From sequence record OQ589852.1: DNA of 45,270 nucleotides; one strand, given 5' to 3'. Shown here piece by piece: positions 5,811 to 40,575 of the stretch (within the stretch, counting starts at the first letter, position 1; every line of letters begins with the position of its first letter). Source of the DNA: Escherichia phage Ioannina. The translations under genes were made by a program, and so were the position numbers. The notes beneath the pieces are model-generated. The model saw only the letters and a list, made by a program, of their open reading frames with translations, searched no databases and had not been told where the DNA came from.

Positions 5811-5885
5811 TGCAACCAATATATTGCAACCAATTAGCCAATGCAAGCAAATTTTGTGATTATTTTTATCACTGATAATATTAAG
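5811..5885. promoter_or_regulatory. divergent promoter region with tandem TGCAACCAAT repeats
   Basis: Minus strand reads TTGCAT-N17-TATATT, overlapping two ATTGGTTGCA copies; plus strand has TTGTGA-N16-TAATAT upstream of the scaffold gene. Confidence 0.55.
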
Positions 5886-21935: not shown

Positions 21936-21975
21936 CTTAAATATAGTGCAACCAATACGTGATTGCAACCAATTT
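21936..21975 (-). promoter_or_regulatory. early-type promoter (TTGCAA-N17-TATATT) with tandem ATTGGTTGCA repeats
   Basis: Read on the minus strand: ATTGGTTGCAATCACGTATTGGTTGCACTATATT; drives the lipoprotein cassette. Confidence 0.55.
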
Positions 21976-25808: not shown

Positions 25809-26279
25809 TTATTTAAGTGCGCGAGTTACCAGTGTTTTTTCCATATTGCGGAAGTCTTCCTCGGTCATCTGGATTTTCGACCCGTCTTCACCGTACAGCG
25901 TCACCAGCGGTTGAGCTTTCGCTAAAACTCCCTTCGGCAGCGACCACGCATCAACCTGTTTCTTCAGGCTTTCCAACTGCGCTGCCGTTACGTCGATCTG
26001 GATCTCGTCATGCACAGTTGTGTAAGACTCACCCAGTAGCGCGGAATATGCCACTAAATCCACAATGTTATCTTCCTGGTGTTTACGGGTCTGGCGTACC
26101 AGCTTCAGGCAAATCATAAATACCCAGGCTTCTTGCTCGGTAAGGTCACGACCGGTTAGTGCGTTGAATACGGCAGCGATCTGTTTAGCGCTGCGTTCTT
26201 CTTTGCTGTCATATCCATTTTCTTTCCCGCGCTGTTCCATAGTGGTGGCGGCGTTTTTGCAGTATTCGAATGCTTTCAT
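25809..26279 (-). CDS. putative MazG-like nucleotide pyrophosphohydrolase
   Basis: 156 aa, all-alpha character; segment LKLVRQTRKHQEDNIVDLVAYSALLGE resembles the MazG/HisE family. Weak call. Confidence 0.3.
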   Translation of the reverse strand: MKAFEYCKNAATTMEQRGKENGYDSKEERSAKQIAAVFNALTGRDLTEQEAWVFMICLKLVRQTRKHQEDNIVDLVAYSALLGESYTTVHDEIQIDVTAAQLESLKKQVDAWSLPKGVLAKAQPLVTLYGEDGSKIQMTEEDFRNMEKTLVTRALK

Positions 26280-26321: not shown

Positions 26322-26356
26322 GTTAATATAGTGCAACCAACCTATTGGTTGCAAGT
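26322..26356 (-). promoter_or_regulatory. early-type promoter containing perfect palindrome TGCAACCAA-N4-TTGGTTGCA
   Basis: Minus strand reads TTGCAA-N18-TATATT; the palindrome looks like a dimer operator. Confidence 0.55.
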
Positions 26357-27034
26357 AAATTTTGCAACGTTTATTGCGTAAATTTTCGGGACTAAATCGC
26401 TGCACGCCCGACGAATTGCCGCGATGTTCTTCGGGCAGTCCTCGATGATGACCAGTTCCGACACATCCGCATAGCAAACCATTTGGAACACGGCGCACGC
26501 CTTAAACTCTGGCGGCGGGGTGTCGTCCAGCATGTGGCGCATAAACAACCGGCCTACCGGGAAGACCTCCAATTGCTTGGCGGTGGTATCCCAACATTCT
26601 CGCTGCCGGTTGGTCAGATACGCTATCTCGAAGCCTTGCTCTTTGTACATGCGCAGCAGCGGCAGCATATCCATGTTAAGGTCTTCGCGTACGTGTGCTT
26701 TGTGCCACTTCGCCCAAAAGGTTGATTTGGTTTTTATGCCGGGCACCAGGTCAGCACGCGCATCACTTGAACCATTAATAACGCCATCCAGATCACAAAT
26801 CAGTAGTTTCATTTTTAAGCTCTCAATAAGGGTGTAGCGGGCGCTTCGCGCAGTAACGGAGTTGCATACAAAATGGCAACGCTTGGTTATGACAAGCCAG
26901 CCGGTGAGGTCCAGGCCCAGGATGTATTCCGGGCGGCTGGCGCGCATCACTCGGTCGCGGCGCGGGTCGATGTTATAGTCTCTTTGCATTTGGTCTACTA
27001 CCGCGGGGTCGCGGTCAACGATTAAGATATTCAT
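26342..27034 (-). CDS. HAD-superfamily phosphatase-like protein with N-terminal extension
   Basis: Internal MKLLICDLDGVINGS matches HAD motif I (DxDG); N-terminal 75 aa unassigned and may be a separate small ORF. Confidence 0.45.
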   Translation of the reverse strand: MNILIVDRDPAVVDQMQRDYNIDPRRDRVMRASRPEYILGLDLTGWLVITKRCHFVCNSVTARSARYTLIESLKMKLLICDLDGVINGSSDARADLVPGIKTKSTFWAKWHKAHVREDLNMDMLPLLRMYKEQGFEIAYLTNRQRECWDTTAKQLEVFPVGRLFMRHMLDDTPPPEFKACAVFQMVCYADVSELVIIEDCPKNIAAIRRACSDLVPKIYAINVAKFTCNQ

Positions 27035-27500
27035 GTAACTCACTCTCGCTCATTATTTCAATTTGTGCGCTGCCGATTGGCGGCGCTTCGTCAAAGATTA
27101 TCAATTGCTGGCACTTGTTATTGCTCGGCCCGACTTCACCGGTGACAGCGTGTATAAATCTCACCCGCCAGTCCAGAAGAATTATCAGGTTTGCAGTCTT
27201 CCGGGCCAGCCTCGCCCACTTCGTCGACGTGTCCTGATTCAGTAGCATGACCGTCCGGCGTCCGTGCGCTGCGCATTCGACCCACGGCAGCGGATCGGAA
27301 TACGGCGGATTGCACCACTTCCACCCTTTCAACTCTGCCCAGTCCACATCAAGCGCGCTATGTTCTGCCGTGAAGTAACGCGGTAGCAGGTGGTTGGCAT
27401 CGCTTGCCGCCATATCGTAACGGAATCGGTATTTCCGACGAAGCGGTTTGAATAAAGCTGGCGGCGTGCGCCAGCTATCTTTTTGCTCACTCTTCTGCAT
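27015..27500 (-). CDS. dam: DNA N6-adenine methyltransferase (phage Dam family)
   Basis: 161 aa; WRTPPALF N-terminus and catalytic WCNPPY motif. Confidence 0.85.
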   Translation of the reverse strand: MQKSEQKDSWRTPPALFKPLRRKYRFRYDMAASDANHLLPRYFTAEHSALDVDWAELKGWKWCNPPYSDPLPWVECAAHGRRTVMLLNQDTSTKWARLARKTANLIILLDWRVRFIHAVTGEVGPSNNKCQQLIIFDEAPPIGSAQIEIMSESELHEYLNR

Positions 27501-27954
27501 GACCTGGATCTATCGCGTATAAAGGGACTTTATTGCCGGTTTTCATAACGCGCTGGACGCGCTTTGACTCCTCGGCGCTCATTGGGCGCATATCAGTGCT
27601 ATAACCACCGTTTGATGTGTGCCGCCACGCTATCAGCACCAGATCTTTCCGGTCGATCTTAGACTGGCGGCCCTTCGGTCGCACGTACGCCTCGGCCCGT
27701 TTGCAATGCTCGCGCAGACCTTCGGCAGTGATGCGGTTTAGTGCAACGCTGGTTGTGTATCCGGTGCGCTGCATAATCCCCATCAATTCGAAAAGCAGTT
27801 CGAAGCGCTCCTCTAACTCCTTGCGCACCTTCTCCTCACCTTCATAGCTCGCAAGGTAGGTGTCTGCCAGCGCGTTCGCACGTTCGGCCTGTTCGCGGGC
27901 TTCGAGGCATTGCGCGGCCCAGTATGCTTTTTCTTCTTGTAAAATTTTCATCGT
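27487..27954 (-). CDS. hypothetical protein
   Basis: About 155 aa from MKILQEEKAYW with GGAGA RBS; coiled-coil-like; early-type promoter directly upstream. Confidence 0.4.
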   Translation of the reverse strand, partial: TMKILQEEKAYWAAQCLEAREQAERANALADTYLASYEGEEKVRKELEERFELLFELMGIMQRTGYTTSVALNRITAEGLREHCKRAEAYVRPKGRQSKIDRKDLVLIAWRHTSNGGYSTDMRPMSAEESKRVQRVMKTGNKVPLYAIDPGHAEE

Positions 27955-27997
27955 GTTGTCTCCAGGTATTAAAAAGGGCGTTCCCTTCAGAACACCC

Positions 27998-28032
27998 CCA
28001 ATATAATGCAACCAATCTCGCAATGCAACCAA
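27998..28032 (-). promoter_or_regulatory. early-type promoter (TTGCAT-N17-TATATT) with tandem ATTGGTTGCA repeats
   Basis: Minus strand: ATTGGTTGCATTGCGAGATTGGTTGCATTATATT. Confidence 0.55.
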
Positions 28033-28033
28033 T

Positions 28034-28357
28034 TTATTCGAAGAAATTTGGGTCGCTCATCACATCCACAAGATAAAGGTTGTTAAGGCGGTTGCCGTAA
28101 TGGCCTGGCGTGCGCTGACGGCACACAACAGCGTAACCAGGGGGGACGGTATTTCCGGTCGCCAGAATCCACGCCACGCGCGCGCCGTTTAGTGATTTAC
28201 CGTTGTATTCTATGCGGGTGCCGCCATCTGCAGTGTTAAGGCTGCCAATCTTCTGACCGGTAGAATTGAGACGGATAACACCAGTCTGGCTATCGTAATT
28301 AAACAGTTGTTTGGTCAGTGCTACCGAAAAATCAATTGGATCAAAGATAGTGTTCAT
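28034..28357 (-). CDS. HNH-like endonuclease (small, possibly degenerate)
   Basis: 107 aa; GHYGNRLNNLYL resembles the HNH H-x-GN-x-LNN-x-NL signature. Confidence 0.35.
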   Translation of the reverse strand: MNTIFDPIDFSVALTKQLFNYDSQTGVIRLNSTGQKIGSLNTADGGTRIEYNGKSLNGARVAWILATGNTVPPGYAVVCRQRTPGHYGNRLNNLYLVDVMSDPNFFE

Positions 28358-29070
28358 TTTAAATTTTCCTCATTGACTGCAATTGCGAAGCCGCGCGGTG
28401 TGAGCGACCTGATTAATTTAGTGCGGGCGGACTTACCACCGAGCAGACTATACTGTTTGGAGTAACCTTTTTCAACAAATACCGGCTTCTTCTCCGGCAT
28501 CCTGAAGCCGTTCCCCGTCCATAAGCAAGTCAGCTTCGGATATGAATCACGCGCGTTGATATATTCCGGGAATAGCGGGTGCACATCATCTTCCGGCAGG
28601 TAGCCGCCACACTCCCACGGGTTAAACGAGTGATCTGGCTTGCGCCACTGGGTGGATAGCACACTGCGCGGATTCTCTATCATATATGGCACTTCGAAGA
28701 AGTCACCGAGAAAGGCCGCTATCTTAGCGGTGCGCACTGCCTTAATCTGGAATGCTGGGTCTTTAGCGCGTTTGCGCGGGAAAGCTGGCGCGCCGCTAAC
28801 TGCCAGGTCGGTGCATGGCGGAAAGGCGTAAATAATATCGGGTGTGCCAAACTCGCCCGCCATAGCGCGGTCTACGAAGTCCAGATCGATAAACACGTTC
28901 TTATAGCGAATGCCGCGCCCATAAAGCCGGTAGTGGTTGTAGGAGCCGTGGTCGGCCCCGTCAAAGTTAAAGCAGGTGCACTTATGCCCCATCTCGGCAG
29001 CACGCTCGATCATAAGGCCGCTGCCGTCGAATAATGACCAGATGTTTAGTATCCTAACTCGCTTATTCAC
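28354..29070 (-). CDS. DNA cytosine-C5 methyltransferase-like protein (short, atypical)
   Basis: LFDGSG (motif I-like), FPPCTDLAVSG (PC catalytic motif-like), IENP (ENV-like); only 238 aa, so the target-recognition region is reduced or absent. Confidence 0.45.
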   Translation of the reverse strand: MNKRVRILNIWSLFDGSGLMIERAAEMGHKCTCFNFDGADHGSYNHYRLYGRGIRYKNVFIDLDFVDRAMAGEFGTPDIIYAFPPCTDLAVSGAPAFPRKRAKDPAFQIKAVRTAKIAAFLGDFFEVPYMIENPRSVLSTQWRKPDHSFNPWECGGYLPEDDVHPLFPEYINARDSYPKLTCLWTGNGFRMPEKKPVFVEKGYSKQYSLLGGKSARTKLIRSLTPRGFAIAVNEENLK

Positions 29071-30713
29071 TTGCGGCCTCGCTTCTTCTCTTTCATATAT
29101 TCCATCAGTTCATCCTGGATGTCGCGCTTACCATCACGGCGGCTTGCCACTAACTCGTCGAGCGTGCCGCGGGCCTGGATAATGTAGACGAATACCGGGC
29201 GCGGGTGTCCGGCCTGCATCTGGCGCACCGGTCCGATACGTTCGACGATCTGCGCGAAGTGCTCAAAGTTCCACGTATCCGAGAAGATAGCGAGGTGGTG
29301 TCCGCCGTCCTGTAAGTTAAGACCGTGGCCTGCCGATGCCGGGTGTGCAAACATGATCGGAATCTCGCCCCGGTTCCACGCTTCCATATCCTTAACGCCT
29401 TGCTTGCCCTTACCCATTGCGACACCCTGCGGGAATTTCTTCTTAAGGCGGGCTAGGTCGTGCTTGTACTGGTAGGCCACAAGCAGCGGTGCGCCGTTAA
29501 GTTCTTCTACGATACTTTCCAGGGCGTCAAGTTTGGCGTCGTGGATTTTCTCCCACTCGTCGGTCCGCTCGCCGTCGTCGTCAACCTTATACACAGCGCC
29601 AGATGCAAGCTGGAGGCATTTAATCGTCTTAGAGGCAGCGTTGGCGGCCTCCACTGTTCCGCTTTCCAGTTCGGCAAATAGCTCGCTCTCGAACTGGTCG
29701 TAAATCTTGCGGGCTTTCTTCGGCAGGTCAACCAGCACCGGCGTGTAAATCGGCTTGTCACACCCGAAGTATTCAGCCGCGTCAACCGTTAGCGAAATAT
29801 CAGCCAGCTTTGCGTGAATCTCTTTTTCGGAGTTTTTCAGCGGGGAGTGCTGCATAGTGAAGCTGCCAGGCGCAACCGGCTTACTTATGAACCAGCGGTC
29901 GGTGAATGCTTTATAGCTACTGCCGAGGCGTTCGCCACCGTCAACAAACCAGTTCTGCCCCCACACATCCTTAAGCCCGTTGGGTGCTGGCGTACCGGTC
30001 AGGTTAATCCAGCGCTTGACGTGCTTATGTGCGATCGCCGCCAGTGCGCGAGCACGTTTACTGCCCTGCTTACTGCGGTAGCCTTTCAGCTTAGTGGACT
30101 CATCGGCAACAACGACCGTAAAAGGCCACTCCTCGCCGCAATAGTTCACAAGCCACTCAACCACATCATAGTTGATGCACACGACGTTCGCGCCGCTCTC
30201 AAGCGCTGTAATGCGGTCCTTCTCCGGTCCGGTGCCGTCTACTACCTGAAGCGATGAGAATCCCCATTTATCTTGTTCCGGGGGCCACGTACCGGACGCA
30301 ACGCGCAACGGGGCCAGCACCAGCACGCGGTCTTCTCCGTGGTTCAGGATGCCGGTCTGGAACATCTTGTTCAGCGCCCACATGGTAGCGCCAGTCTTTC
30401 CCGATCCCATCGTCGCCCAGATATTACAGCGGGCGTGTTTAATGATGAAAGACGTGATTAACTTTTGGTACTCGCGCCTGCGAAAACGTGCCATCTTGTT
30501 ACGCCTTTTCCAGACTTCTGTTTCATGGTGCCAATTCCTCGTCGTAGCGGTCCAGTTAAATTCGTGCCCCACATGCACGCCGGTCGCCCGGAAGCCTTTA
30601 AACTTCTGCCAGCACACAGTTAACGGCAGCGGCTCGCGCATTGCGGCGATATACCATACGCGATCGCCGGGTTTGCAGTCGCCAAGTGTGGTAAGGCGGT
30701 AATGTTCTTTCAT
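29067..30713 (-). CDS. SNF2-like ATP-dependent helicase
   Basis: Walker A MGSGKTG, DEST box (VVADESTKLK), LTGTPAPNGL motif III; start taken at MKEHYRL after GGAGA RBS. Confidence 0.8.
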   Translation of the reverse strand: MKEHYRLTTLGDCKPGDRVWYIAAMREPLPLTVCWQKFKGFRATGVHVGHEFNWTATTRNWHHETEVWKRRNKMARFRRREYQKLITSFIIKHARCNIWATMGSGKTGATMWALNKMFQTGILNHGEDRVLVLAPLRVASGTWPPEQDKWGFSSLQVVDGTGPEKDRITALESGANVVCINYDVVEWLVNYCGEEWPFTVVVADESTKLKGYRSKQGSKRARALAAIAHKHVKRWINLTGTPAPNGLKDVWGQNWFVDGGERLGSSYKAFTDRWFISKPVAPGSFTMQHSPLKNSEKEIHAKLADISLTVDAAEYFGCDKPIYTPVLVDLPKKARKIYDQFESELFAELESGTVEAANAASKTIKCLQLASGAVYKVDDDGERTDEWEKIHDAKLDALESIVEELNGAPLLVAYQYKHDLARLKKKFPQGVAMGKGKQGVKDMEAWNRGEIPIMFAHPASAGHGLNLQDGGHHLAIFSDTWNFEHFAQIVERIGPVRQMQAGHPRPVFVYIIQARGTLDELVASRRDGKRDIQDELMEYMKEKKRGRK

Positions 30714-30721
30714 CGTCATGT

Positions 30722-30754: not shown

Positions 30755-30958
30755 TTATTCGCGTTCTTCACGATAGCGGCGCTGCCGTTCTCGTTCGGCC
30801 TTGTTCCGGCACGATTTACACTGCGCACGATACCCGTCGGGGCTACGTGCTGTTTTGCCAGTGTACTTATGAAATTGCGATAGCGGTTTAACACAGCCGC
30901 ATTGGCTGCAACGTTTTTCTTCAATCATCTTAAATGCCTCGTTAGTCCTAACCTGCAC
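30755..30958 (-). CDS. zinc-ribbon protein
   Basis: CSQCGC…CKSCRNK (two CxxC pairs), basic C-terminus. Confidence 0.4.
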   Translation of the reverse strand: MQVRTNEAFKMIEEKRCSQCGCVKPLSQFHKYTGKTARSPDGYRAQCKSCRNKAERERQRRYREERE

Positions 30959-30967
30959 ACTATAACT

Positions 30968-31246
30968 TTATGCGACCAATTCCGCAACCAATAAATCAGC
31001 GTCGTGAATGTTGTCGATTACGCGAACGTCGGCCCCGCGCTTCGCCATGCGCTCATGTTCACGTACCTGGTGCGGCTTCGGCTTACCACCGGGGCGCTTC
31101 ACTTCAACGAATACGACTCTGCCGTTGATGATGATAATCAGGTCGGGAGCGCCGGTACGCCCTTCCCATGCCATTTTACGGCAGAATCCACCTGCCTCTT
31201 TTACCTCTTTCATCAGGTGACTTTGCATCTTGCCCTCAGGAGTCAT
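30968..31246 (-). CDS. VRR-NUC domain nuclease
   Basis: 92 aa; GAPDLIIIINGRVVFVEVKRPGG is a PD-(D/E)xK core of VRR-NUC type. Confidence 0.65.
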   Translation of the reverse strand: MTPEGKMQSHLMKEVKEAGGFCRKMAWEGRTGAPDLIIIINGRVVFVEVKRPGGKPKPHQVREHERMAKRGADVRVIDNIHDADLLVAELVA

Positions 31247-37269: not shown

Positions 37270-37305
37270 GTGAATAATAGATTGGTTGCAGGATGGGTGT
37301 CAACA
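37270..37305 (-). promoter_or_regulatory. leftward early promoter (TTGACA-N18-TATTAT)
   Basis: Consensus -35 hexamer on the minus strand, with a TGCAACCAAT copy in the spacer. Confidence 0.6.
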
Positions 37306-40087: not shown

Positions 40088-40175
40088 TTGCGCGCATTGG
40101 TTGCCAATATGGTTAATTTGTGCGCGCATTGGTTGCCGGATTGAGCATTAAATTCATATCGTATTGGTTGCCGTG
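40088..40175. repeat. three direct repeats of (GCGCGC)ATTGGTTGCC spaced about 34 bp
   Basis: Immediately downstream of the primase-helicase stop. Confidence 0.7.
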
Positions 40176-40529: not shown

Positions 40530-40575
40530 TAATATTGGTTGCATCCAGCCTGGCACCTTGCTATATTGGTTGCAC
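40530..40575 (+). promoter_or_regulatory. early-type promoter (TTGCAT-N17-TATATT) with ATTGGTTGCA repeats
   Basis: Plus strand: ATTGGTTGCATCCAGCCTGGCACCTTGCTATATTGGTTGCAC, about 30 nt upstream of the ATG at 40596. Confidence 0.55.

What the first reader, a model, noticed from the sequence alone, without database searches (positions are those of the whole stretch)
27015..29070. DNA-modification cluster: Dam methyltransferase, HNH-like gene, atypically short C5-MTase-like protein, with HAD phosphatase and MazG-like gene nearby
Within 3.5 kb of the early operon the phage encodes a Dam-family N6-adenine MTase (NPPY motif), a 238-aa protein with C5-cytosine MTase motifs I, IV and VI but a reduced target-recognition region, a small HNH-like gene between them, and nucleotide-metabolism candidates. 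Orphan methyltransferases are an established anti-restriction strategy; the truncated C5-MTase-like protein could have altered specificity or a different substrate.
Basis: partly seen in the sequence, partly recalled or inferred. Interest (0 to 1): 0.5.

Follow-up and report, generated by a model that had tools for sequence, protein, structure and literature searches.

The report
Dhillonvirus phage's two small DNA methyltransferases
This stretch of a Dhillonvirus coliphage genome encodes two unusually small stand-alone DNA methyltransferases, one for adenine and one for cytosine; both belong to known phage families and the same genes are already annotated in well over a hundred related phages, so the finding is real but ordinary.

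Summary
The window is a Dhillonvirus (HK578-like) coliphage.

- **Dam, 27015-27500:** a clear member of Pfam PF05869 (E 8e-35) with an NPPY motif.
- **Known family:** the protein belongs to a large family of short phage proteins found in 1,511 phage records. It is 54% identical to the "Dcm-like" enzyme of phage KarlJaspers. The near-identical enzyme of phage K42 deposits 5mC on retron Ec86 msDNA and so triggers that defence.
- **HNH-like gene:** the 107-aa protein is a truncated I-HmuI-like protein restricted to Dhillonvirus and Eiauvirus, so it is not a methyltransferase partner.
- **Other calls:** the HAD call holds at superfamily level. The "MazG-like" call is unsupported, since the only match is DUF6378.

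Anti-restriction is plausible but unproven. The one open twist is an unusual Lys213 in motif X. Interest is low.

The parts
28354..29070 (-). Short (238 aa) Dcm-like C5-cytosine DNA methyltransferase. The GTG start overlaps the helicase stop (GTGA). Motif I is SLFDGSG, motif IV is FPPC86, motif VI is E132-N-P, the motif IX-like segment is K179..W184..F189..P192, and the motif X-like segment is G211-G212-K213-S214.
28034..28357 (-). 107-aa truncated HNH-like (I-HmuI-type) protein. Its ATG overlaps the methyltransferase stop (ATGA).
   Evidence: phrog_99 E 1.8e-13. No Pfam HNH hit. AF2 pLDDT 73. The only meaningful Foldseek hit is I-HmuI 1u3e, E 0.048, prob 0.94. Found only in Dhillonvirus and Eiauvirus, 161 records.
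27998..28033 (-). Intergenic tandem pair of the phage-wide motif ATTGGTTGCA. It reads as a sigma-70-like promoter (TTGCAT, 17 nt, TATATT) and is followed by a short hairpin, so it separates the helicase/MTase/HNH unit from the next gene block.
   Evidence: Motif count is 21 against 3.7 expected; 0 of 100 shuffles reach it. Sequence read. A terminator is annotated at the equivalent site in WF5505.
27487..27951 (-). 154-aa protein of unknown function. It carries the PHROG label 'DNA ligase' without supporting evidence. The real start is the ATG at 27951, and the gene overlaps the Dam start.
   Evidence: phrog_10530 E 5e-97, aligned to residues 28-181 of the longer ORF. No Pfam hit. One relative is annotated 'Possible DNA ligase but no evidence'.
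27015..27500 (-). 161-aa minimal phage Dam-type N6-adenine DNA methyltransferase, with NPPY at residues 64-67.
   Evidence: Pfam PF05869 E 7.9e-35, 120.5 bits. phrog_111 E 2.3e-54. TIGR01712 scores 83.8 bits, below its equivalog cutoff of 97.
26342..27034 (-). 74-aa ORF (phrog_10685) fused in frame to a 156-aa HAD-superfamily phosphatase related to the PNK phosphatase domain. The HAD gene's own ATG is at 26812 and it carries a DLDGV motif.
   Evidence: phrog_10685 E 7.7e-43 on residues 4-77, and phrog_415 E 2.6e-37 on residues 77-231. Acid_phosphat_B scores 24.4 bits, below its cutoff. One extra A relative to welsh and WF5505 creates the fusion.
25809..26279 (-).
   Evidence: PF19905 DUF6378 E 2.8e-10. 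PHROG 'phosphofructokinase' labels. No PDB sequence match with either the single sequence or a profile.
29067..30719 (-). SNF2-family helicase immediately upstream. It is translationally coupled to the methyltransferase gene and is listed here as context.
   Evidence: PF00176 E 1.5e-9. phrog_62 E 9e-155.

Best explanation
This is the conserved DNA-methylation part of the Dhillonvirus replication gene block. It encodes two stand-alone ('orphan') minimal methyltransferases. No restriction partner was annotated or detected among the genes examined.

The 161-aa Dam (PF05869) transfers a methyl group from SAM to adenine N6, using its NPPY motif. GATC is the likely target by analogy with the family, but this is inferred.

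The 238-aa protein is a stripped-down C5-cytosine methyltransferase. Its Rossmann-type catalytic core resembles the DNMT3 catalytic domain. Cys86 would attack cytosine C6, Glu132 would protonate N3, and SAM would bind at motifs I and X. The target-recognition domain is reduced to a conserved loop of about 20-25 residues (158-178) plus a motif IX-like segment. The fold and the motifs are shown here; catalysis is inferred from a characterised homologue. That homologue, phage K42 Dcm, matches the window protein across its length and was enough when expressed alone to put 5mC on retron Ec86 msDNA.

During infection both enzymes presumably methylate replicating phage DNA, along with host DNA and msDNA. 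The expected benefit is protection from methylation-sensitive restriction at their target sites. The documented cost is activation of retron Ec86/Eco1, and for Dam-type enzymes of retron Sen2.

The HNH-like gene is a truncated homing-endonuclease relative that sits in this block. The HAD phosphatase and the DUF6378 protein are variable accessory genes. None of these three is needed for methylation.
For: - Identity of the phage and conservation of the block.
- Dam.
- Conservation across 61 diverse family members: Cys86 in 59, Glu132 in 60, Lys179 in 60.
- Some family members pass Pfam PF00145's own cutoff.
- The window protein is 54% identical over 231 aa to KarlJaspers bas06_0055. That gene is 711 bp, the same length as the K42 dcm gene, and K42's C82/E128/K175 map onto C86/E132/K179.
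- K42 Dcm alone gives 5mC on msDNA by LC-MS and triggers Ec86, while the catalytic mutant does not (bioRxiv 10.1101/2023.08.16.553469). The work was later published in Cell Rep 2024;43:114857, cited.
- BASEL curators already name the Dhillonvirus orthologue 'Dcm-like C5 cytosine methyltransferase'.
Against: - No activity data exist for this protein or for any Dhillonvirus orthologue.
- The window protein itself scores below every Pfam and NCBIfam threshold.
- There is no recognisable motif VIII (QxRxR).
- K42's fourth mutated residue, K176, is Leu180 here. That position is variable across the family.
- The sequence specificity of the family (CCWGG) was assumed from host Dcm plus msDNA mutants. 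It was not mapped.
- Dhillonviruses remain sensitive to the restriction systems tested in BASEL, so an anti-restriction benefit is unproven.
- CCWGG (observed/expected 1.01) and GATC (0.73) frequencies are uninformative.
Confidence: 0.78

Rival explanations
1. The short enzyme is, wholly or partly, a carboxymethyltransferase. It would use the host metabolite carboxy-SAM, made by E. coli CmoA, to write 5-carboxymethylcytosine rather than 5mC, or in addition to it.
For: - hhalign and pairwise alignments place Lys213 (GGKS) opposite DNMT3A R891 (GRS), which in turn aligns with HhaI N304 (GNS).
- That position is Arg350 in the natural phage carboxymethyltransferase CmoX, where it binds the carboxyl group of Cx-SAM (PMC12783734).
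- Changing the equivalent Asn to Lys turns M.MpeI into a carboxymethyltransferase (PMC13288465).
- Lys213 is invariant in the enterobacterial-phage clade.
- The K42 study reports only 5mC data and does not mention 5cxmC.
Against: - K42 Dcm clearly produced 5mC.
- DNMT3A has Arg at the same position and is a normal SAM methyltransferase.
- The phage has no cmoA and no CmoY-type ligase, whereas CmoX genes typically travel with cmoA.
- The motif is PPC, not CmoX's SPPC.
- Lys213 is present in only 30 of 61 wider family members.
- The C-terminal alignment is low-scoring, and the model coordinates could not be superposed.
Confidence: 0.07
2. The 238-aa protein is not a functional DNA methyltransferase. 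It would be a degenerate methyltransferase-like DNA binder, or it would act on another substrate such as tRNA, as Dnmt2 does.
Against: The catalytic Cys, Glu and SAM-binding motifs are nearly invariant across 750 clusters, which argues for retained catalysis. A 54%-identical homologue makes 5mC in DNA. The closest folds are DNA methyltransferases, not Dnmt2.
Confidence: 0.06
3. The short enzyme needs the adjacent, translationally coupled 107-aa HNH-like protein as a DNA-recognition subunit, in the manner of a split methyltransferase such as M.AquI.
For: The genes overlap by 4 nt (ATGA) and the pair is conserved throughout Dhillonvirus. The related Eiauvirus also places the HNH-like gene beside its methyltransferases. 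The enzyme's own recognition region is tiny.
Against: The methyltransferase family occurs in 1,511 phage records, while the HNH-like protein occurs in only 161. KarlJaspers/K42 lacks the HNH-like gene, and K42 Dcm was active when expressed alone. In Eiauvirus the neighbouring enzyme is a full-size PF00145 methyltransferase.
Confidence: 0.04
4. The methyltransferases are active, but their main role is not evasion of restriction. Possible alternatives are control of phage replication, packaging or mismatch repair, or interference with host gene regulation.
For: BASEL found Dhillonviruses comparatively sensitive to type I and II restriction, and in the related Drexlerviridae it found no simple link between methyltransferase genes and resistance. 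The genome instead avoids 6-bp palindromes strongly: GAATTC 0.13, CTGCAG 0.14, GATATC 0.24 of expectation. The genes sit inside the replication block. Some Dhillonviruses have lost most of the Dcm-like gene, for example Teewinot.
Against: BASEL did not test restriction enzymes that are blocked by Dam or Dcm methylation, such as EcoRII or MboI-type enzymes. Orphan phage methyltransferases are an established anti-restriction device (general knowledge).
Confidence: 0.25

Closest known systems
Phage K42 / KarlJaspers (Bas06) 'Dcm-like C5 cytosine methyltransferase', the trigger of retron Ec86/Eco1
   Same: Same family and same size (236 vs 238 aa). 54% identity over 231 aa, E 2e-85. The catalytic Cys, Glu and Lys are at corresponding positions. 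Both are stand-alone genes in a phage early region.
   Different: It comes from a different phage family (Drexlerviridae, Hanrivervirus) and is 46% divergent. K176 is Leu180 here. Activity, specificity and retron triggering have not been tested for the Dhillonvirus protein.
DNMT3A/DNMT3B catalytic domain (closest solved structures, e.g. 6u8p, 5yx2)
   Different: Only 13-16% identity. DNMT3 is about 285 aa and keeps a TRD loop and a motif VIII RxR, and it works as a dimer or tetramer with regulatory domains. The phage protein is about 45 residues shorter, and its oligomeric state is unknown.
Canonical bacterial C5-MTases (E. coli Dcm 472 aa, M.HhaI 327 aa; Pfam PF00145)
   Different: The window protein fails PF00145. 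It has no QxRxR motif VIII, no GN(S/A)V motif X and no separate small (TRD) domain. The sequence match covers only motifs I-IV, and only in some family members.
CmoX of Synechococcus phage S-B43 (8YF3) and engineered M.MpeI N374K (carboxymethyltransferases)
   Different: CmoX is 372 aa, has SPPC and Arg350, and travels with cmoA and often a CmoY ligase. None of these are present here, and the homologue K42 Dcm makes 5mC.
Phage Dam family PF05869 / TIGR01712 (small phage N6-adenine methyltransferases such as those of HP1 and Shiga-toxin phages; examples are from my own knowledge)
   Same: Strong profile match, an NPPY motif, a size of about 160-180 aa and no separate recognition domain.
   Different: It scores below the TIGR01712 equivalog cutoff (83.8 vs 97 bits). 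Specificity is untested. The sequence is only about 78% identical at nucleotide level to the Dam of the otherwise nearly identical phage LM40P1.
I-HmuI HNH homing endonuclease (1U3E)
   Same: It is the only meaningful fold hit for the 107-aa protein: 86 aligned columns, 20% identity. An Eiauvirus homologue has a weak NUMOD-like match. A His and Asn residues lie in the expected region (GHYGNRLNNL...DPN).
   Different: The protein ends where I-HmuI's C-terminal DNA-binding helices begin. The Asp before the catalytic His is Gly. There is no Pfam HNH hit, so nuclease activity is doubtful.

Membership tests
C5-cytosine DNA methyltransferase superfamily (PF00145-type) | Motif I (FxGxG) SAM-binding loop | tested here: met
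   SLFDGSG at residues 12-18 aligns to DNMT3A LSLFDGIATG in hhalign.
C5-cytosine DNA methyltransferase superfamily (PF00145-type) | Motif IV Pro-Cys catalytic nucleophile | tested here: met
   FPPC86TD. The Cys is conserved in 59 of 61 family members and aligns to DNMT3A C710.
C5-cytosine DNA methyltransferase superfamily (PF00145-type) | Motif VI ENV glutamate | tested here: met
   E132-N133-P134. The Glu is conserved in 60 of 61 and aligns to the DNMT3A ENV motif.
C5-cytosine DNA methyltransferase superfamily (PF00145-type) | Motif VIII QxRxR | tested here: not met
   No QxRxR is present. The corresponding segment reads GGYLPEDDVHP. Which basic residue replaces HhaI R165 could not be determined without the model coordinates.
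C5-cytosine DNA methyltransferase superfamily (PF00145-type) | Motif X (GN[SA]V) closing the SAM pocket | tested here: inconclusive
   GGKS (211-214) aligns to DNMT3A GRS and HhaI GNS. The pairwise scores are low, and an alternative register exists.
C5-cytosine DNA methyltransferase superfamily (PF00145-type) | Profile score above Pfam PF00145 gathering threshold | tested here: not met
   There is no hit for the window protein even at E 0.1-1. Of 61 family members, 11 hit at E<=1. Three members checked separately pass the 22-bit cutoff through motifs I-IV only.
C5-cytosine DNA methyltransferase superfamily (PF00145-type) | C5-MTase three-dimensional fold | tested here: met
C5-cytosine DNA methyltransferase superfamily (PF00145-type) | Separate target-recognition (small) domain between motifs VIII and IX | tested here: not met
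   Only about 20-25 residues (158-178) lie between the motif VIII-equivalent and the motif IX-like segment. By the hhalign register this compares with roughly 60 residues in DNMT3A and more than 100 in HhaI.
C5-cytosine DNA methyltransferase superfamily (PF00145-type) | Catalysis of 5mC formation in DNA | not testable with these tools
   Shown only for the homologue K42 Dcm, by LC-MS.
Short phage Dcm-like family (phrog_757; K42/KarlJaspers Dcm) | Full-length sequence similarity to family members | tested here: met
   phrog_757 E 2e-78 over residues 8-236. 54% identity and E 2e-85 to bas06_0055. 1,426 homologues, all about 226-259 aa.
Short phage Dcm-like family (phrog_757; K42/KarlJaspers Dcm) | Residues mutated in the inactive K42 enzyme (C82, E128, K175, K176) | tested here: inconclusive
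   Three of the four are conserved, as C86, E132 and K179. The fourth is Leu180, a position that varies across the family (K 25, R 9, E 5, T 5, L 3 of 61).
Short phage Dcm-like family (phrog_757; K42/KarlJaspers Dcm) | CCWGG specificity and triggering of retron Ec86 | not testable with these tools
   Only indirect literature evidence exists, for K42. CCWGG is neither avoided nor enriched in the window.
Phage Dam N6-adenine methyltransferase (PF05869) | Profile match above the gathering threshold | tested here: met
   120.5 bits against a cutoff of 28.1, E 7.9e-35.
Phage Dam N6-adenine methyltransferase (PF05869) | (D/N)PPY catalytic motif | tested here: met
   N64-P-P-Y67 in WCNPPYS (translation).
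Phage Dam N6-adenine methyltransferase (PF05869) | NCBIfam TIGR01712 equivalog cutoff | tested here: not met
   83.8 bits against a cutoff of 97.05.
Phage Dam N6-adenine methyltransferase (PF05869) | GATC-specific adenine methylation | not testable with these tools
   GATC is present 148 times, at 0.73 of expectation, which is uninformative.
HNH endonuclease (I-HmuI / HNH_3 type) | Profile match to an HNH family | tested here: inconclusive
   phrog_99 'HNH endonuclease' gives E 1.8e-13. No Pfam HNH or HNH_3 hit appears at E 0.1-1.
HNH endonuclease (I-HmuI / HNH_3 type) | Beta-beta-alpha-metal fold resembling a solved HNH enzyme | tested here: inconclusive
   The model has pLDDT 73. The single Foldseek hit is I-HmuI: E 0.048, prob 0.94, TM 0.48.
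HNH endonuclease (I-HmuI / HNH_3 type) | Catalytic His with flanking Asp and Asn metal ligands | tested here: inconclusive
   His88 and Asn93/94/104 are conserved, but the residue before the His is Gly rather than Asp. The correspondence to I-HmuI residues rests on my own recall.
HNH endonuclease (I-HmuI / HNH_3 type) | C-terminal DNA-binding modules of homing endonucleases | tested here: not met
   The protein ends at residue 107. The Foldseek alignment covers 86 columns of the 174-residue I-HmuI.
HAD-superfamily phosphatase | Motif I DxDx(T/V) | tested here: met
   D84-L-D86-G-V88 of the 233-aa ORF.
HAD-superfamily phosphatase | Profile match | tested here: inconclusive
   phrog_415 (polynucleotide kinase phosphatase-type) gives E 2.6e-37. 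Pfam Acid_phosphat_B scores 24.4 bits, below its cutoff of 27. The NCBIfam HAD models are far below their cutoffs.
MazG-type nucleotide pyrophosphohydrolase | Profile or structural similarity to MazG | tested here: not met
   The only match is DUF6378 (PF19905, E 2.8e-10). There is no NCBIfam hit and no PDB sequence match with either the single sequence or a profile.

The most novel reading that the evidence does not exclude
The short Dcm-like enzymes of enterobacterial phages carry an invariant lysine (Lys213, GGKS) at the motif X position where canonical C5-MTases have Asn. The natural carboxymethyltransferase CmoX has Arg at that position, and the engineered M.MpeI N374K has Lys. In an E. 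coli host, which makes carboxy-SAM through CmoA, these enzymes might write 5-carboxymethylcytosine alongside or instead of 5mC. Phage and msDNA would then carry a modification nobody has looked for. This would also change the reading of what retron Ec86 senses.
Probability: 0.07. Interest if true: 0.65.

Novelty: already known. Interest (0 to 1): 0.2.

Why it matters
For phage biology this is a routine annotation. The same Dam, HNH-like and Dcm-like genes are annotated in well over a hundred Dhillonvirus genomes, and the short cytosine methyltransferase family has a characterised member.

The case has three practical uses:
- The window's 238-aa protein escapes Pfam and NCBIfam, so automatic pipelines often leave it as 'hypothetical'. 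Fold comparison and family context name it confidently.
- Carrying this gene predicts sensitivity to retron Ec86/Eco1-bearing hosts, which matters for host-range prediction in phage therapy.
- The family, with DNMT3 as its nearest structural relative, shows how far a C5-MTase can be pared down and still work. Its sequence specificity has never been mapped directly.

If the Lys213/carboxy-SAM idea were true, it would add a new natural DNA modification to common coliphages.

Tried and rejected
- **Direct profile searches of the 238-aa protein.** Pfam, NCBIfam and PDB sequence searches, with the single sequence and with a profile, gave nothing significant. Structure prediction was needed.
- **hhalign against M.HhaI alone.** It was not significant (prob 0.5%) and mis-aligned the C-terminus. 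Only DNMT3A gave a usable alignment.
- **HNH-like protein as an obligate specificity subunit.** Rejected on distribution (161 vs 1,511 records) and because K42 Dcm is active alone.
- **Inferring target sites from k-mer statistics.** CCWGG is at 1.01 and GATC at 0.73 of expectation, which is uninformative. Only 6-bp palindromes are strongly avoided.
- **'MazG-like' label for the DUF6378 protein.** No support from Pfam, NCBIfam or PDB searches, including a profile of 16 homologues.
- **'DNA ligase' PHROG label for the 154-aa protein.** No supporting domain was found. One relative's annotation itself says 'no evidence'.
- **Published Cell Reports version of the K42 study.** It is not held in the library, so only the preprint was read.
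- **Literature on methylomes of Dhillonvirus or BASEL phages.** Searches found no direct mapping data.

Full report
**What the window is.** The 5.3-kb stretch around the finding is 84-87% identical at nucleotide level to more than 140 Dhillonvirus (HK578-like siphovirus) genomes. The gene order is the same as in phages welsh, WF5505 and GeorgBuechner. The closest record is Dhillonvirus LM40P1, at 98.7% amino-acid identity on the 238-aa protein. The finding therefore concerns a conserved part of the replication gene block of a well-sampled coliphage genus.

**Anatomy.** All genes lie on the minus strand. In transcription order they are:
- SNF2 helicase, 29067-30719.
- 238-aa methyltransferase-like gene, 28354-29070. 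Its GTG start overlaps the helicase stop as GTGA, and a GAGG sits 6 nt upstream.
- 107-aa HNH-like gene, 28034-28357, whose ATG overlaps the previous stop as ATGA.
- An 82-nt intergenic region. It holds two tandem copies of ATTGGTTGCA, which read as a sigma-70-like promoter, and a short hairpin.
- Dam, 27015-27500, overlapping the previous gene by 14 nt.
- A 74-aa ORF and the HAD phosphatase, 26342-27034.
- A second inverted copy of the motif, then the DUF6378 gene, 25809-26279.

The 'cluster' is therefore at least two or three transcription units, not one operon dedicated to DNA modification.

**Dam.** The 161-aa protein matches Pfam PF05869 at E 7.9e-35 and phrog_111 at E 2.3e-54. NPPY lies at residues 64-67. 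It falls short of the TIGR01712 equivalog cutoff. At 161 aa it is itself a minimal methyltransferase. From my own knowledge, E. coli Dam is about 278 aa and the PF05869 family lacks a separate recognition domain.

**The short cytosine methyltransferase: detection.** No Pfam, NCBIfam or PDB sequence search detects the protein. A family profile gives only marginal hits to M.HaeIII, CmoX and DNMT2 over motifs I-IV. It does match phrog_757, 'DNA methyltransferase', at E 2e-78. It has 1,426 homologues in the 5.8-billion-protein collection, essentially all 226-259 aa. It also has 750 clusters at 50% identity and occurs in 1,511 of 50,697 phage records. These span Dhillonvirus, T1-like Drexlerviridae, Jersey-like, rV5-like, Klebsiella, Vibrio and even Arthrobacter phages. 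Three family members pass Pfam PF00145's own threshold through motifs I-IV.

**The short cytosine methyltransferase: fold.** An AlphaFold2 model built from 61 diverse members is very confident, with pLDDT 95.6 and pTM 0.92.
- The Foldseek top 48 are DNMT3A/B/C.
- hhalign of the family against DNMT3A 628-912 gives 83% probability and E 8e-6.
- The alignment matches SLFDGSG to motif I, FPPC86 to the catalytic PC, E132-N-P to ENV, and LGGKS..IRS to DNMT3A LLGRSWSVPVIRH, which is motif X.
- Across the family, Cys86 is conserved in 59 of 61 members, Glu132 in 60 of 61 and Lys179 in 60 of 61.
- No QxRxR motif VIII is present.
- Only about 20-25 residues (158-178) separate the motif VIII-equivalent from a strongly conserved motif IX-like segment (K179, T181, W184, F189, P192).

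The nearest solved relative is the C5-MTase with the smallest known recognition region.

**It is a known family with a characterised member.** BASEL curators annotate the Dhillonvirus orthologue (GeorgBuechner, 91.8% identical) and the Drexlerviridae versions as 'Dcm-like C5 cytosine methyltransferase'.
- Wang et al. (bioRxiv 10.1101/2023.08.16.553469; later Cell Rep 2024;43:114857, cited) isolated escapers of retron Ec86 from phage K42, which is 95.4% identical to KarlJaspers Bas06. All four escapers disrupted a 711-bp dcm gene.
- Expressing that gene alone was toxic only in Ec86-bearing cells and raised 5mC on msDNA by LC-MS. A C82A/E128A/K175A/K176A mutant did neither.
- Of 35 Ec86-sensitive phages, 34 encoded the gene.
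- I fetched KarlJaspers. Its bas06_0055 is 711 bp and is 54% identical to the window protein over 231 residues, E 2e-85. C82/E128/K175 correspond exactly to C86/E132/K179. K176 is Leu180 here, at a position that varies across the family.
- The enzyme's CCWGG specificity was assumed from host Dcm and supported only by msDNA mutants. It has not been mapped.

**Role.** Anti-restriction is the textbook reading for orphan phage methyltransferases, but it is not established here.
- BASEL reports Dhillonviruses and Drexlerviridae as comparatively sensitive to type I and II restriction. [quoted passage not shown]
- The genome itself relies on avoiding 6-bp palindromes: GAATTC is at 0.13, CTGCAG at 0.14 and GATATC at 0.24 of expectation, and GAGCTC is absent. 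CCWGG (1.01) and GATC (0.73) are not informative.
- The best documented consequence of these enzymes is a cost. Msdna methylation by phage Dcm activates retron Ec86/Eco1, and Dam-type methylation activates retron Sen2.
- Some Dhillonviruses have lost most of the gene, for example Teewinot, which fits an accessory, conditionally useful function.

**The HNH-like gene.**
- The 107-aa protein matches phrog_99 (E 1.8e-13) but no Pfam HNH model.
- It has only seven homologous clusters and is confined to Dhillonvirus plus four Eiauvirus records.
- A moderate-confidence model (pLDDT 73) has a single meaningful Foldseek hit, the homing endonuclease I-HmuI: E 0.048, prob 0.94, 86 columns. An Eiauvirus homologue has a weak NUMOD-like match.
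- The protein keeps His88 and several Asn residues (GHYGNRLNNL...DPN) but ends where I-HmuI's C-terminal DNA-binding modules begin.
- It is best read as a truncated homing-endonuclease relative of doubtful activity.
- It is not a partner of the methyltransferase. The methyltransferase family is about ten times more widespread, KarlJaspers lacks the HNH-like gene, and K42 Dcm works alone.
- In Eiauvirus the same protein sits next to a full-size PF00145 enzyme and a PF05869 Dam, so its position in this block is old.

**Neighbouring genes.**
- HAD phosphatase: it has DLDGV and matches the PNK-phosphatase PHROG (E 2.6e-37). It is just under the Pfam cutoff. That supports superfamily level only.
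- The listed 233-aa ORF is a fusion. One extra A (TTAAAAATG, where welsh and WF5505 have TTAAAATGA) joins the 74-aa upstream ORF in frame to the HAD gene. The extra base may be a homopolymer sequencing error.
- The HAD segment is absent from LM40P1 and apparently from GeorgBuechner.
- The 'MazG-like' gene matches only DUF6378 and nothing in the PDB, so that label is unsupported.
- The 154-aa gene's 'DNA ligase' PHROG label has no domain support.

**The one loose end.** hhalign and pairwise alignments place Lys213 (GGKS) opposite DNMT3A R891 and, through the HhaI-DNMT3A alignment, opposite HhaI N304.
- In the natural phage carboxymethyltransferase CmoX that position is Arg350, which contacts the carboxyl of Cx-SAM (PMC12783734).
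- Asn-to-Lys at the same position converts M.MpeI into a carboxymethyltransferase (PMC13288465).
- E. coli makes Cx-SAM, and the K42 study reports only 5mC.
- Against the idea: K42 Dcm clearly made 5mC, DNMT3A has Arg there and uses SAM, and the phage has no cmoA or ligase. Lys213 occurs in only 30 of 61 wider family members, and the alignment is low-scoring.
- I rate this at about 7%.

**Verdict.** The feature is nonetheless a known, widely annotated module, and the short enzyme belongs to a family with published activity. Interest is 0.2 and the novelty category is already known.

Noticed in passing
window 5811-5834, 21947-21973, 26332-26353, 28007-28033, 30971-30992, 37281-37290, 40096-40172, 40534-40574, 41098, 43736: The 10-mer ATTGGTTGCA occurs 21 times with up to one mismatch, against 3.7 expected; 0 of 100 shuffles reach this count. 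Most copies come in closely spaced pairs just upstream of genes on the same strand. The pair at 28007-28033 reads TTGCAT, 17 nt, TATATT, like a sigma-70 promoter. This is probably a Dhillonvirus-wide promoter or operator element.
   Followed up: partly
window 26801-26824 (junction at about 26810): One extra A in a homopolymer run (TTAAAAATG, where phages welsh and WF5505 have TTAAAATGA) fuses the 74-aa ORF in frame with the HAD phosphatase gene. The result is a 230-233-aa ORF. It is either a real gene fusion or a homopolymer sequencing error.
   Followed up: partly
window 26341-27820 compared with L009 (Dhillonvirus LM40P1): The region is mosaic. The DUF6378 gene and the HNH-like/Dcm-like genes are 99.8% and 98.6% identical to LM40P1. 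The HAD segment is missing from LM40P1, and the Dam and 154-aa-gene region is only 77.7% identical. This indicates recombinational exchange of this sub-module between Dhillonviruses.
   Followed up: partly
whole window: Six-base palindromes that are common restriction sites are strongly avoided: GAATTC 1 vs 7.5 expected, CTGCAG 2 vs 13.8, GATATC 3 vs 12.3, GAGCTC 0 vs 1.5. CTAG is also low (14 vs 50). CCWGG is at expectation.
   Followed up: no
L007 (Edwardsiella phage eiAU-183) 2366-4388: The related Eiauvirus has the same block order: helicase, a homologue of the HNH-like protein (151 aa), a cytosine methyltransferase, then a PF05869 Dam. Its cytosine methyltransferase is a full-size 330-aa PF00145 enzyme rather than the short family.
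   Followed up: partly
window 30755-30958 (minus strand): A 67-aa Cys-rich protein matches PHROGs labelled 'Lar-like restriction alleviation protein' (E 1.9e-16) and endonuclease VII/HNH. It could be an anti-restriction candidate closer to that role than the methyltransferases.
   Followed up: no
H74, Escherichia phage vB_EcoD_Teewinot 25725-25892: This 41.8-kb Dhillonvirus retains only the last 56 or so codons of the Dcm-like gene next to an intact HNH-like gene. The methyltransferase is therefore dispensable and has been deleted in some lineages.
   Followed up: no
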